In this document: piece after piece, positions 11,977 to 17,900 of the stretch
Layout of the letters: every line of letters starts with the position of its first letter
Position numbering within the stretch: the first letter of the stretch is position 1
Source of the DNA: Sphyrna mokarran
Taxonomy: Eukaryota
DNA length: 64,000 nucleotides
Reading direction: 5' to 3'
Assembly (NCBI GenBank): GCA_024679065.1
Contig: JAGIQG010000006.1
Location: 97,030,001-97,094,000, forward strand
Position numbers and translations under genes: made by a program
Notes under the pieces: model-generated
Seen by the model: the letters and a program-made list of their open reading frames with translations, nothing else
Database searches by the model: none
Told to the model about the DNA's origin: nothing

Positions 11977-14900
11977 CTGGGGAGGCAAATAATAGCAAAC
12001 ATATTAGTACAAATCAAATGGTGAAAGTAGCAGGTGTTTTGTGGAAAGGAAATAATAGAAAAAATATGAACAAAGAGTAGACCAATACTAAGTTACCAGG
12101 AGTTTGTCAATTAGCAAACTATGCAGATTCAATAGATACACATTCAACAATGCAGGGCTTGCATTTCACATATTGCAGTTTACAGAGACTGCACCCTGAC
12201 AGCTCAGCTTGGTTCTCACCCAACCAGGAGTACTGTTACATCTTAAAAACAAAATTCTTAAATTGTATTAATTCTGGAATTTTCAAAAGGCATTACAGTA
12301 CACTGTAAGATCACCGATGTTGCACTCCTTACAGCAAAGTTGGTTCAGAAAGGGCACAAGTCAGAGATGTAAGCATTGTAATCCTGATGTTCAGACCCAC
12401 AGTCACTTAGAATATGGTTCCTCATTAAGAATGTGCAAATGCTTCCTTTGAGTAAGGTTTGTCTGCCCCAGGAGCGTAGGATCAGTGAAGTTATCGTTTG
12501 AACTTCATTAGTATCTCATGTTTGGAGAAGTTATTGGTCTACTCTTTTAAAAAGAAACATAAAACAGTTAGTTAATAAACTAAGATTTATTTTGTGATGT
12601 ATTAAAGGTAGAGAAAATAGTTAAGATGGTTGGAGAGCAAGCAAGTTAAAGACTTTTAGCAAAATGAATTTACTGAGTGCAGTTTGCCTTCAAAACACCA
12701 TAGAATCCTGACTTTATGCTGAATAGGTCCTTCCTCTTTCCCTGACAGATGATGTAGAAAATGACTATGCTCAAAACACGAGTTCCTCTACACAGACCAA
12801 ATACAAGCCAATATTTGCCAAGACATTATACAGACATGTTTCCAATTCCCAAGTAAGTGCAGACAGGATGTCATCTTGAATTAGGTTTCTTGCCAGTGAC
12901 TTGGCTGTTGCTCACATCTCCTCCCCACCACCCAAGACTCAGGAGTCTGCACCCTGCTTTCCAAGATCTAAATACTTGCACCCTCATATCCTAGGGTTCT
13001 TGCTCCTTCCAAGGTCTGGCCTTGCCCCACCACTTCCCCTTCCCCAAGCTTGACTCTGATGGGATTCCTGCAGATAGTTGGGGAGGGATTGCAATCATAT
13101 TTGTATAGATACCTTCAAAATGTAGACCACCAGAGAAAATTTGATGTGCTAAGCCTTATGACTGATTTGCTACTTGTGATCTGAAATAGCATTGGGGAAA
13201 GCAGAAATGTACAGGGCCAGAAAATAAATTATTCCAGCCCAAAAAGAAATAAAAGCTATTTGGAAAAATGATGGTCTTTGCAAAAAAAAAATCTACATTT
13301 GTTTATTCTCAACTAACTTGTGTATTATTTGAATGATAGAGATCAAGACCCTTATACAGCCTTTTTTTCTCTTCCAGCTTGCCACCCTTTCTTAGCCTGC
13401 TCACAACTAAATAGCCTACGGTCATCATTTAATGAGATCTCAAACCTAGGGTGCTTTTTTTTTGAGTCAGCATTGGCTGTAAGGAATTTTGCCTAATCTG
13501 GGAATATTGTAAAATTGCAGGAAATAACCACAAGTTTGCAAGTGCAGTGGTAGTGGACAACAGACAATATCTGAAGAGCTTGCTATAGACTTAATGTAAA
13601 ACAAAAAAAATTATGTTCCTTCAACATTCCCATGGTAAATAATGGTGAAAATTGTCCAGCCGAACATTTCACAATGCAATAACATTCTCCTGCTATCAGA
13701 GTACTATCACAAAACTGCTGACAGGAGGACATAATTAGGTAACAAACCCAAGTACAGACATGAGATTTTACCATTTACAAATGGACAGAATATAATTGTT
13801 GCTGAATAATCTGTGCCCATGTCCAATCAACCCCCACTTTACCTGGTCCACACTCAGCATTTGGAAAATCAATAACTTACTAATAAAAATACTCAACTAT
13901 CAAAACTCAAAATCACTTTCACTAGTTGGTATCTAGTACTGAGGAAGCCCTTTGCGTACTATACAAAAGAAGGCAGACTACAGCAGTCAGAATGATTTTA
14001 GTTCATTTGTTTGGTTTGCTAAGGTGGTAGCGACACGATCACTGCATTAACACGACACGTGAATACCTTGCAATGAGTGGAACTTATTGGAATGCCCACA
14101 TTTGAGGCTACAAGTACAGTTAGCGCACTCATTACTTCAATGCAAAATCCACTGTGAAGAAACAGAAAATATAGTTTGTAGTAGGAAAAGCAGGTGAAAG
14201 ACATCCCATCACAAACATGCAATGTGGAATTGAGTGAGTGAGTGATGAGGGTTCCACTAAACACCAACTCCTGCCCTAAGGAAGGTACTGCAGATCAGTA
14301 TACACAGTGGCACAAGGAGCTCATCTTGAACTGAAACTGTGCAATAACCATCAGCTAAACAAAAACTTTAAGGCCAAGTGCTACAAAAAGCATTTTTGGG
14401 TGATTGACAAGTGTAAAAAAGTTTTGAGCTTTGGAACCTTTGTCAATTTAGTGCAGTTTGGCCTACATCCCACAAGATACAGTGCAAAAGTCAAGTCAAT
14501 TTGTTTCAGTCAGACATGGCCCGTTTGGTTTTAAAACCAATCTGATATATAGCATTCATCACAACAGAAGACCAGATCTTTATCACATAGCAGTTTATAG
14601 GAACAAACTGAAAAAAGACTGACAGTTTGCCTTTCCTACATTATTAGTGTGACTGAGCTTTGAAGTTAATTTGAACTTCACTGGTTGTCAAGCACTTTGA
14701 GACAACCTGAAATCATAGAACCCTATAGTGCAGAAAAAAGCCATTCAGCCCATCGAGTCTGCACAGACCACAATCCCACCCACGCCCTACCTCATATCCC
14801 TACATATTTTACCCACTACTCCCTCTAACCTATGCATCTCAGGACATGAAGAGGCAATTTTAGCATGACCAATCAACCTAACCTGCACATCTTTGGACAA

Positions 14901-17900
14901 TGGGAGGAAACCAAGCACCTGGATGAAACCCACGCAGACAGGGAGAACCTGCAGACTCCTTACAGACAGTGACCTGAGCTAGGAATCGAACCCAGGTCCC
15001 TGGAGCAGTGAAGCAAGAGTGTTAACCACTGTGCTACTATGCCACCCTAATCATGATAAGTAGGATATTAATGCAAGTTATGTAATATATAGTATTATAC
15101 AGGAGGCAGCCCTTCAGCCTATCAAGTCTGTAGTAATTATTTCAAAGAGTAATCCAGCTAGTCCTACTCCTCTGCTGTCTCCATATTCCTGCAATTTAAA
15201 AAACAAACTATACAAAACTTCTACTTATTATGCTGAAAACACTTCCACAGGCTGCAACTACCTGCGGGTACCATTCACATAATTTCTTTTCCTATGTGAT
15301 AAAGAGGTTGTTACAAAAAGAGCATCATAGATGAGTCCAAACAGGTCCTCATTCATACTATCCAGCAGAGATTACTAGAGTGCTCTAATCAGCTAAACTA
15401 ACTGGCCAACCGTATTCTCTCTCTGGTGCAGAGTGAAAGAGGAGATAGTCAATTAGGAATGGGCTGGTCTTTTTACATTAAAAAAATTTACCAATGCCCA
15501 AATTCTGATCAAGTGTGTTCAAATTCATTCATGGTCTTGCCCTCCTCCCCATCCCAATTAATTATCCTTATAAAGGAAATCAAAAACCTCAACAAATAGA
15601 TTTTTAAGCAAGTAGAAAGGTTTATAGTTCACTTAGCACCAATGGTGAATAACTGAATTGACAATGGACAGGAGGCCAGAATTAGTGCGCTCAGGAGATC
15701 TGCTGTGTACCAAATCTTTTGCACTCAAGAAAGAAAGCAAATAGTCACTGTGAGACAGGACATGCCTCTCATCTCTAGCTTCCAATTCCCTATTTTTAAG
15801 TGTTTCCTATTTTTTTCTCCACTCTGCTGTGAGAGTGAAGAGAACAGGAAGAGCAACACTTGTTGCAATCTCTTCATCTAACTCTTTTTTATTTCAAGCT
15901 GGCAAAAGCTTAGGTAAGATTTACTTTGTTCAGTTCAGTCAGGATGAGTTAGCTGTAGAATACCTGTCCATTTCATTTGGGTCCAAGTCCATATTGTGTT
16001 TTACCTCAAAAATGCTTTTTGTAAATCAGACCTGGCACCAAATTGGGTGCTTAACGGTAATCAGTTTTCCTCAGTTTTCCTGCCTCAGGATGAGTCATGC
16101 CACCAGAACTGATGTGAGCCAAACCTCACAGTAGTACAGACTGAACTGCTTGTGTCGCAGTCACAGGGCATACGCATACCTTGCAGTGTGTGGTACTGAT
16201 AGGAAGTCCAACATTGGAAGCAACCACAACTGTGAACGCCGAAGCCAACTCAATAGTGAATCCACTGCAGGAAGCACAAAACAACACTTCACAGTCATTC
16301 GAGTCTCATGATTAATACCATGAAGTTCAGGCAGCATGCAAGAATCTTACCATAGTTCTGGATAAATATCCAAGAATCATTTTGCTATATCCAGTGCTTG
16401 TATGGATCTTTTTTTTAAAAAAAAGATCCTTTTCAAAAAAAAAGGAGACCAAGTCATTACAAGATCATGGCATAACACATTCATGTTCGTTATGAAACCA
16501 TTACTGCTGGCATCAACTGAGCAAATTCATTGCATGTTTAGCTCAGAGGAAATGGAACAGGTTCTGTAATAATAGCCCAAGTTATTAGCATCATGTATAA
16601 AATTAGCATCAAGCTGATAACATGCAACATCCACCAGCTCTGTGAATGTGACTCGCATCATACAATGTGATCATCATCTCCAACACATACAAAACAGCCA
16701 CTGCATACAAGATATTAGTACACCTGTGCACATAGTGCAAAAACCCAAAGCACTGCAGTGTTTTTAATGTGGTAAATCACTGCCACTTGCATTCTCCACC
16801 ACCCCAAACCATTATCCCAGTTAATGAACGTCTACTGCTACTCATTGAAAACTGTAACCATGGTAATGTTGAAAGCTTTGCTTGTGCACATCAGAAGAAT
16901 CTAATAATTTTTTAAAATTTGCAGTAAAAATAAAGAGAAGGCAGAGAAAAGACTGGCATTCAGATAGAGGCCCTTCACATTGACAATAAGCCCCTTAAGT
17001 GTATGGTGGTGGTGGGAAGAGGGAATAAATTTACATTGGAGGGTATAAAAGAGAGTGATCTTGGGATCTCAGCCAGTATATTTTTCAACAACTGACTGTT
17101 TGGAGTCACCAAGAAGCACAAAGATCTGGTCAGCCTGTCCATAGGCACTTGCCGACACAGCAAACACAGTTGCGGCAAATATTCTTTGTACTGGCTTACT
17201 ACTTAAAGGGGAGTGTTTGAAGTTATGCCCTTGCACAGAACAGGTCAGAAATAGTACTCGAGGTGCCTTTAACTGGCAACTAGCATTCGATTCACCAACC
17301 TGAACCATATCTGGGAGTTACCATCATCAGCACCACCATACTGGGATGAGTTTTGGATACAAGTGTGTTTGGTTACATGTTGAACTATCCATATGTGCAA
17401 TAATTAGCTTACCAATATTGTGTGTTGCCCATTCATACACCTCATTTGATGCACAGAATGAGGTGAGGAAGTGAAAGGAAGATGATGACCAAAAAAATAA
17501 ATAGAAAATGTAGTCAGTTTGGAAGGGCAGAAATTAATTTTTTGTGGGTTGTGGATGTTTGAGAGAAAAAAGAGCAAGAATCAAATAATTCCACTTACAC
17601 TGAGCAGTGGGGTAAGCCTTCTTTACACAATCACCTATTATGTTCATCAGTGCAACATTAAATATGACATATGGTGCAAGCGTTTTAGATGCTGTTGGAC
17701 CATACTTACCTAGATGGAGTGATTGGAGTGAGATCTTTGCCCAGCGTCTGAATGACTCGCCTGCCCCAGACCCAGAGACCAGCACAGATGCCCAGACCAC
17801 CATATAGCAGCAACCAGATTGGTGTGGAGGCATTTTGCAGCACAGCCCCTTCCCGGTAGATCAACCAAAGAGCAACAAGGGGGCCAATTGCATTGCTGAA

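What the first reader, a model, noticed from the sequence alone, without database searches (positions are those of the whole stretch)
14067..16264. Tandemly duplicated, mutually exclusive exon 10a/10b gives two PiT-2 isoforms that differ in the HP2-side substrate-binding region
Seen in the sequence: two 85-nt exons, both phase 2->0 and both with good splice sites, encode [28 protein letters not shown] and [28 protein letters not shown]. Only 55/85 nt match, yet 21/28 aa are identical. Of those 21 codons, 14 differ synonymously, including a TCG/AGT Ser switch. That pattern means an old duplication under purifying selection on both copies, not a decaying pseudo-exon. Including both exons reads TGG ATT TTG CAT TGA, a stop 70 nt before the last junction (NMD target), and skipping both frameshifts, so exactly one must be used. 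Established knowledge: this segment carries the human E575 and S593/T595/H596 region, part of the PiT Na+/Pi site and mutated in primary familial brain calcification. The canonical human gene has a single such exon. These residues are kept in both copies, while neighbours change (T573C, L576V, A577M, F580L, V583L, L590I, T594S; human numbering). Inference: the two isoforms are kinetically or tissue-tuned transporters, and exon 10b was probably lost in mammals.
Basis: partly seen in the sequence, partly recalled or inferred. Interest (0 to 1): 0.88.

Follow-up and report, generated by a model that had tools for sequence, protein, structure and literature searches.

The report
Two interchangeable exons in phosphate transporter
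The shark gene for the phosphate transporter PiT-2 carries two interchangeable versions of the exon that builds its phosphate-binding hairpin, a pair kept from hagfish to marsupials but not found as a coding exon in placental mammals, which likely gives most vertebrates a second, differently tuned PiT-2 that humans lack.

Summary
The gene is slc20a2 of a shark. Contigs of one public run (guessed RNA) join exon 9 to 10a, exon 9 to 10b and, at lower depth, 10a to 10b. A retrocopy joins 9-10a-11. Database models differing only in this segment exist in hagfish, chimaera, sturgeon, finch, platypus and echidna; the 10b peptide is identical in shark, teleosts and echidna. Two corrections. (1) 10b is not lost in all mammals: monotremes and marsupials keep it. 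None of 219 placental models has it in frame, and one mole model shows a remnant. (2) T594 is itself a phosphate ligand in the TmPiT structure, so T594S changes the site. PiT-1 groups with 10a and tunicates resemble 10b, so the duplication likely predates the PiT-1/PiT-2 split (weak). An RBFOX-type motif before 10b appears conserved. Kinetic tuning and tissue pattern are untested. It is a new member of a known kind (SLC25A3, SLC7A2), already in automated annotation; I found no paper on it.

The parts
16180..16264 (-). slc20a2 exon 10a (85 nt), the PiT-1-like and human-like version of HP2a plus the HP2 tip
   Evidence: joints 9->10a in X1 and X11, 10a->11 in X11; retrocopy
14067..14151 (-). slc20a2 exon 10b (85 nt), alternative version with C573, V576, M577, L583, S594
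   Evidence: joint 9->10b in X1
17710..17895 (-). exon 9 (shared upstream exon; donor at 17710)
11327..11976 (-). exon 11 (shared last exon; coding to 11812, 3' UTR at least to 11327)
25897..42702 (-). upstream coding exons of slc20a2 (about 42702-42414, 38509-38369, two in 34755-34459, 29085-28960, 28880-28653, 26493-25897; tblastn bounds, approximate)
14216..14221 (-). TGCATG (RBFOX-type motif) 70 nt upstream of 10b; a compatible motif lies 66-78 nt upstream in six orthologous flanks
   Evidence: conservation inferred from translated introns, binding untested
14154..14256 (-). 103-nt AG-free zone before the 10b acceptor, with CTCAT/CTCAC branch-point-like words just upstream of the TGCATG
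   Evidence: read from the sequence printed; branch point inferred
16096..16100 (-). GCATG 80 nt downstream of 10a, inside an intron stretch that also aligns in another organism
   Evidence: X19 record 22
16335..16340 (-). TGCATG 76 nt upstream of 10a; conservation not tested
16007..16023 (-). 5' arm of a candidate long-range RNA duplex (17-bp perfect core; extended about 16053-15994)
   Evidence: candidate only
14382..14398 (-). 3' arm of the candidate duplex (extended about 14410-14355); pairing would loop out 1.6 kb of the 10a-10b intron
   Evidence: candidate only

Best explanation
Exons 10a and 10b are an ancient tandem duplicate in slc20a2, each spliced after exon 9, giving two equal-length PiT-2 proteins that differ only in the HP2 hairpin and likely differ in phosphate affinity or transport rate. 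Shown: both exons are intact and spliced, the pair is shared from hagfish to marsupials, and 10a+10b together makes an early stop. Inferred, protein: T594S keeps a hydroxyl on the phosphate but alters the site, and five changes on one face of helix HP2a, away from the Na-binding E575, would repack the moving hairpin. Inferred, splicing: RBFOX binding between the exons would favour 10a and block the 10b acceptor, perhaps helped by an intron duplex, and NMD would remove double-inclusion transcripts. Inferred, history: the duplication likely came before the PiT-1/PiT-2 gene split; PiT-1 kept only the 10a type, and placental PiT-2 likely lost 10b as a coding exon.
For: Joints with CT..AC ends: 9->10b depth 10.7, 9->10a 11.6 and 10a->10b 3.2 in X1; 9->10a 191.8 and 10a->11 311.5 in X11. 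Retrocopy with 83/85 nt to 10a and 54/85 to 10b. 37 of 120 listed hits carry the exact shark 10b peptide and 27 differ only by S578C. X1/X2 pairs differ only in this segment in 8 of 8 pairs compared, hagfish included. T594 in 302 of 302 10a-type (PiT-1 included) and S594 in 83 of 83 10b-type segments; position 594 was not used to class them. TmPiT T346, aligned to 594, bonds phosphate O3 by N and OG1 (PMC7413737 Table S3). The five HP2a changes span a 120-degree arc, reached by 195 of 6188 choices of 5 positions. 17 of 21 translated orthologous flanks hold a GCATG-compatible word within 70 codons, against 26 of 148 and 4 of 13 in controls. 10a+PiT-1 branch 93/95. Placental models 0 in-frame 10b of 219; marsupial 5 of 24; monotreme 3 of 9.
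Against: No transport data for either isoform. No run is on record as RNA and no tissue is known. The 10b->11 joint is not listed; it is only implied by the 24+85+2 length of X1 record 1. In X11, 10b appears only on an unspliced contig; X19 and X21 gave no cover of 10b. Most orthologous isoforms are automated predictions. Both exons are also conserved at DNA level (0 changes in 170 nt against 8 in 188 nt of exon 9 in X1), so RNA-level constraint may explain part of the peptide identity. The tree has 28 columns and no starred branch, and a 10a+10b clade is not rejected (p-AU 0.058). The placental result is absence from protein models, not from DNA, and one mole model ends in the 10b read-through. 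A TGCATG also precedes 10a, which fits the RBFOX model less well, and the motif is not enriched in the region (3 in 5.7 kb at 0.36 per kb). The duplex energy is matched by 2 of 25 control windows, and longer inverted repeats occur elsewhere in the window.
Confidence: 0.62

Rival explanations
1. The two isoforms are real but differ in something other than kinetics, such as folding, surface delivery, dimer partner choice, phosphate sensing, or thiol chemistry through the 10b-specific C573.
For: Five of seven changes are hydrophobic swaps on the helix face away from E575; T to S keeps the hydroxyl; C573 is in 82 of 83 10b-type segments. For SLC25A3, either isoform rescued myotubes and the affinity difference is called slight (PMC13252106 passages).
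Against: The swapped segment is the substrate hairpin itself and holds four listed disease positions (G571, E575, A585, T595; PMC7413737 Table S4). The dimer contacts listed for TmPiT involve M2, M4, M5 and M7, not HP2 (Table S2).
Confidence: 0.2
2. 10b mainly serves as a regulatory poison exon: adding it after 10a triggers NMD and sets PiT-2 level, and the 10b protein is a near-equivalent by-product.
For: 10a->10b joint in X1. Double-inclusion models in platypus, chimaera, sturgeon, wallaby, opossum and star-nosed mole. High DNA-level conservation of both exons.
Against: In X1 the in-frame 9->10b joint is deeper than 10a->10b (10.7 against 3.2; contig depth is a poor measure). The 10b frame and its specific residues are kept from hagfish to marsupials, and pN is far below pS. 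A poison exon needs no open reading frame.
Confidence: 0.14
3. 10b is a silent duplicate and the database isoforms are annotation artefacts.
For: The isoform names are automated; no run is on record as RNA; the retrocopy used 10a.
Against: Spliced 9->10b contig, a Logan contig protein of 670 aa with 10b between exons 9 and 11 (P0024), identity of the peptide between shark and echidna, and pS 0.85 against pN 0.19.
Confidence: 0.02

Closest known systems
SLC25A3 exons 3A/3B (mitochondrial phosphate carrier)
   Same: Vertebrate-old homologous mutually exclusive exons in a phosphate transporter; isoform A is muscle-biased and the two differ slightly in phosphate affinity (PMC13252106 passages; listed in PMC8373072 and PMC4494069 supplements).
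   Different: Unrelated fold and organelle; retained in humans; tissue pattern known there and unknown here.
SLC7A2 (CAT-2A/2B), SLC39A14 (exon 4A/4B) and SLC12A1 (NKCC2 A/B/F)
   Same: Tandem-duplicated internal exons swapped in a solute carrier (listed in PMC8373072 supplement).
   Different: All are present in humans. Here the swapped exon carries direct ligands of a reentrant hairpin and the second exon is not found in placental models.
RefSeq 'sodium-dependent phosphate transporter 2 isoform X2' models of non-placental vertebrates
   Same: The same exon and peptide.
   Different: Automated predictions without a description of the exon pair, its age, its loss or its function.
Splice-isoform loss after gene duplication (CALU and others, PMC4494069 passages)
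   Same: A paralogue (PiT-1) likely retains only one of two ancestral homologous exons.
   Different: Here the other paralogue (PiT-2) keeps both exons, so this is one-sided loss and not reciprocal separation.
RBFOX RNA bridges and the FGFR2 intronic stem (review PMC7404189 passages and reference titles)
   Same: UGCAUG sites between two exclusive exons plus an intronic duplex that could bring distant elements together.
   Different: Binding, pairing and effect are untested here; conservation of the duplex could not be shown.

Membership tests
PiT/SLC20 (PF01384), slc20a2 orthologue | Two PHO4 repeats with GANDVAN/GGNDV and PxSxT motifs; closest to PiT-2 of other vertebrates | tested here: met
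   Exons match chondrichthyan PiT-2 at 91-98% in conserved exons; hits carry PF01384; a separate slc20a1 lies on another contig; TmPiT 6L85 is the only solved match.
Tandem-duplicated homologous mutually exclusive exons | Neighbouring homologous exons of similar length, same phase, valid splice sites | tested here: met
Tandem-duplicated homologous mutually exclusive exons | Each exon is joined to the shared upstream exon with the other skipped | tested here: met
   9->10a and 9->10b joints
Tandem-duplicated homologous mutually exclusive exons | Each exon is joined to the shared downstream exon | tested here: inconclusive
   10a->11 shown.
Tandem-duplicated homologous mutually exclusive exons | Joint inclusion is rare or non-productive | tested here: met
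   Early stop 70 nt before the last junction. The join occurs at lower depth in X1, so exclusion is leaky; decay itself was not measured.
Tandem-duplicated homologous mutually exclusive exons | Conserved across distant species | tested here: met
Affinity-tuning transporter MXEs (SLC25A3, SLC7A2, SLC12A1 type) | Isoforms differ in measured transport properties | not testable with these tools
   Only structural inference.
Affinity-tuning transporter MXEs (SLC25A3, SLC7A2, SLC12A1 type) | Tissue- or stage-specific exon choice | tested here: inconclusive
   Runs differ (both joints in X1, only 10a joints in X11), but organisms differ, tissues are not given and contigs do not measure level.
RBFOX-regulated exon with RNA bridge | Conserved (T)GCATG near the regulated exon | tested here: inconclusive
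   Present in the window; compatible peptides in 17 of 21 translated flanks, but no orthologous DNA was obtained.
RBFOX-regulated exon with RNA bridge | Conserved intronic duplex that links a distal site to the exon | tested here: inconclusive
MXE with competing docker-selector structures (Dscam, ATE1 type) | One element pairing alternately with two selectors | tested here: not met
   Each arm has one clear best partner (about -44 kcal/mol; next best about -32, within background).

The most novel reading that the evidence does not exclude
The first vertebrates duplicated the phosphate-binding hairpin exon before PiT-1 and PiT-2 split. For over 500 million years PiT-2 has switched between two phosphate sites under RBFOX-type tissue control. 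Placental mammals alone gave up the 10b transporter, and some keep its stump as a poison exon. Human PiT-2 biology, including brain calcification disease, would then reflect a reduced system, and fish, frog and bird models would express an unrecognised second PiT-2.
Probability: 0.3. Interest if true: 0.8.

Novelty: new member of a known kind. Interest (0 to 1): 0.6.

Why it matters
PiT-2 is the main gene for primary familial brain calcification, and its biology is read almost wholly from human and mouse, which appear to lack 10b. If most vertebrates switch the substrate hairpin by splicing, there is a natural, long-selected variant of the phosphate site (T594S plus a repacked HP2a face) for testing how PiT transporters set affinity and rate. 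It is also a hidden variable in zebrafish, Xenopus and poultry phosphate studies, which measure the gene as a whole (for example PMC11812262 passages). The human-centred MXE catalogues searched do not list the gene, so it also shows a class of ancient splice events that such catalogues cannot see.

Tried and rejected
Pseudo-exon or assembly duplicate: rejected (55/85 nt, unrelated flanks, orthologues). A second exon 10 in this genome's slc20a1: none found by tblastn in 30 kb around it. Run search: no RNA holder listed on record; 20 of 24 listed runs hold all 5 sampled words, and only 4 were laid. X19 and X21 gave no cover of 10b, and three of four runs gave no cover of the coding part of exon 11; a filter drops records, so this is no evidence. 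Metagenome pattern scan for orthologous DNA: 2 loci, both chance matches in about 54% GC DNA without PiT context, so introns of other vertebrates could not be compared as DNA. Single-sequence AlphaFold model of P0013: mean pLDDT 38.6, not used, no fold search run. All-against-all duplex scan timed out and was redone smaller. Competing docker-selector structure: not found. A Nova-type YCAY cluster before 10b was not the densest in the region, so it was dropped. Steric exclusion: unlikely with a 2028-nt intron. Literature: searches listed no paper describing the exon pair (most seen as listings only). SLC20A2 had 0 hits in the text-held supplements of PMC8373072, PMC5740500, PMC9741552 and PMC4494069 (file 1 of the last was not searched, long files may be cut). 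The main-text search of PMC9741552 also found none of the control terms, so it is uninformative. PMC13608559 passages held nothing relevant. Subscription journals and bioRxiv supplements were not searchable. The scan's earlier notes held nothing on this gene.
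Full report
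1. Observation. There are two 85-nt exons on the minus strand at 16264-16180 (10a) and 14151-14067 (10b), AG/GT-flanked and in the same phase, with 55/85 nt and 21/28 aa identical and 14 synonymous codon differences. Nei-Gojobori proportions between the copies are pS 0.85 and pN 0.19. Double inclusion puts a stop 70-73 nt before the last junction; skipping both puts a stop 76 nt into the last exon. The surrounding exons match chondrichthyan PiT-2 at 91-98% in conserved parts, so the gene is slc20a2 of a shark-like fish. Exon numbers follow the human gene as recalled.

2. Own genome. The 10a peptide finds four places: 10a, 10b, the single corresponding exon of slc20a1 (68/85 nt to 10a, 56/85 to 10b), and a 5'-truncated retrocopy that joins the end of exon 9, 10a, exon 11 and 3' UTR. 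The retrocopy shows a 9-10a-11 mRNA without 10b.

3. Transcripts. 20 of 24 listed runs (16 organism labels, 15 studies) hold all 5 sampled words of 10b; none is on record as RNA. I laid 4 of them, three holders and one non-holder. X1 shows 9->10b (depth 10.7), 9->10a (11.6) and 10a->10b (3.2). Its 111-nt contig over 10b has 22 unlaid letters beyond the 10b donor, the length expected where 10a and 10b paths rejoin in exon 11; this is inference, the joint is not listed. X11 shows 9->10a and 10a->11, with 10b only on an unspliced contig. X19 and X21 gave no 10b cover. Contig depth does not measure expression, and tissues are unknown. In X1 both exons have no change in 170 nt while exon 9 has 8 in 188 (Fisher p 0.008), as expected for regulated exons.

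4. Distribution. Of 215 hits to the 10b peptide, 120 were listed; 37 carry it exactly (rays, sharks, teleosts, echidna) and 27 differ only by S578C (birds, reptiles, turtles, frogs, chimaera). In 8 of 8 X1/X2 pairs compared, the differences lie only in this segment: echidna, platypus, zebra finch, chimaera, hagfish, two sterlet genes and paddlefish. In-frame 10b occurs in 3 of 9 monotreme and 5 of 24 marsupial models, but in 0 of 219 placental models (208 10a, 10 neither, 1 double inclusion; 165 plus 54). Eleven unnamed hits and 15 unnamed members were left out of that count; none had 10b. Large clusters were sampled at 15 members each, and models are not independent. The double-inclusion case is the star-nosed mole, whose model ends in the same four-residue read-through as platypus, chimaera and wallaby, so at least the start of 10b survives there. 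The loss is therefore an absence from annotation, not yet shown in DNA.

5. Age. A search seeded on the N-terminal part of a Ciona PiT, so unbiased for this exon, shows tunicates with M577 throughout and mostly C573 and L583 (10b-like) but T594 (10a-like), while vertebrate PiT-1 and 10a share A577 and V583. A tree of 38 segments of 28 columns groups PiT-1 with 10a at 93/95, unstarred; a 10a+10b clade has p-AU 0.058. The duplication is older than the hagfish-gnathostome split if the hagfish models are right, and likely older than the PiT-1/PiT-2 split. Convergence or gene conversion is not excluded.

6. Protein. 10b aligns to TmPiT 323-349. In PMC7413737 (passages and supplement read), S345/T346/T347 bind phosphate, T346 through both N and OG1; D327 binds the third Na; the human equivalents are S593/T594/T595 and E575; G571 and A585 map to HP2a. 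So T594S alters a direct ligand. It is fixed by class: T in 302 of 302 10a-type and S in 83 of 83 10b-type segments. T573C, L576V, A577M, F580L and V583L fall in a 120-degree arc of an ideal helix (195 of 6188 combinations do as well), with E575 outside it; F580 varies among 10a-type segments and is the weakest of these. I infer a repacked hairpin and a slightly changed site, most likely affecting affinity or turnover. No usable structural model was obtained.

7. Splicing mechanism. The 85-nt length makes double inclusion a frameshift with an NMD-type stop (rule recalled), and X1 shows that the double join happens. 10b has a 103-nt AG-free zone with a TGCATG at -70, between branch-point-like words and the pyrimidine tract. 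No orthologous DNA was obtained, but 21 database ORFs that run through 10b translate its upstream intron. Six with C578 give CMAW or (M/V)HGMG at 66-78 nt, two frames of one TGCATGGCATGG-type word; eleven others give GMV, WHG or AW at 126-192 nt. In all 17 of 21 have such a word, against 26 of 148 and 4 of 13 in controls; species are related and unnamed. A GCATG lies 80 nt after 10a. RBFOX recognises UGCAUG, acts by position, and can be bridged by intronic stems (review PMC7404189 passages); activation from downstream and repression from upstream is recalled for RBFOX. Such a factor would favour 10a and repress 10b. Against this, a TGCATG also lies 76 nt before 10a and the motif is not enriched overall. 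A 17-bp perfect inverted repeat (16023-16007 with 14398-14382; extended duplex -45.7 kcal/mol) would loop out 1.6 kb. It is rare in shuffles (0, 2, 2 of 300) and single-copy, but 2 of 25 control windows reach similar energy and its conservation is unshown. I put the RBFOX model at about 0.4 and the duplex at about 0.2.

8. Known relatives and novelty. It works like the homologous exclusive exons of SLC25A3, SLC7A2, SLC39A14 and SLC12A1 and meets the structural tests of that class; the kinetic and tissue tests are open. The isoform is already in automated annotation as X2. Nine paper searches and the text-held supplements of four human MXE catalogues did not mention it; subscription papers and some supplements could not be seen. 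Verdict: real, a new member of a known kind, notable for sitting in the substrate site of a disease gene, for its age, and for its apparent loss in placentals. Interest 0.6.

Noticed in passing
L005:5879-6640 (G000:C993, about 135.759 Mb): 5'-truncated processed retrocopy of slc20a2 (end of exon 9, 10a, exon 11, 3' UTR), 94-98% identical to the gene, with a small deletion at the exon 9 end.
   Followed up: yes
window 14067-14099 (inside 10b); proteins P0237, P0244, P0246, P0247, P0251-P0253, P0269, P0270: Bird and reptile 'isoform X3' models leave 10b early at an internal donor, deleting 11 residues including the whole phosphate-binding tip. The shark exon has a GT at the same place. Could be a transport-dead form.
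   Followed up: no
protein P0274 (Condylura cristata): A placental model that reads from 10a into the start of 10b and stops, implying a 10b remnant in moles.
   Followed up: partly
proteins P0089, P0129, P0280, P0281, P0291: Marsupial 10b carries V588G and further changes, more divergent than in other vertebrates; possibly relaxed constraint in therians.
   Followed up: no
proteins P0121, P0125, P0152, P0155, P0292, P0307, P0395, P0533: Models that skip exon 10 altogether recur in monotremes, turtles, marsupials and placentals; the stop falls in the last exon, so these would escape NMD.
   Followed up: no
window 16404-16429: Local palindrome of T and A runs 140-165 nt upstream of 10a.
   Followed up: no
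window 12072-12087 and 12532-12547: Second perfect 16-bp inverted repeat, in the intron before exon 11.
   Followed up: no
window 14711-15042: Dispersed repeat (SINE-like) in the 10a-10b intron with many copies in the window and high cover in the runs.
   Followed up: no
L007-L009 (G000:C894): slc20a1 paralogue with a single exon 10 and a short (about 235 nt) following intron.
   Followed up: partly
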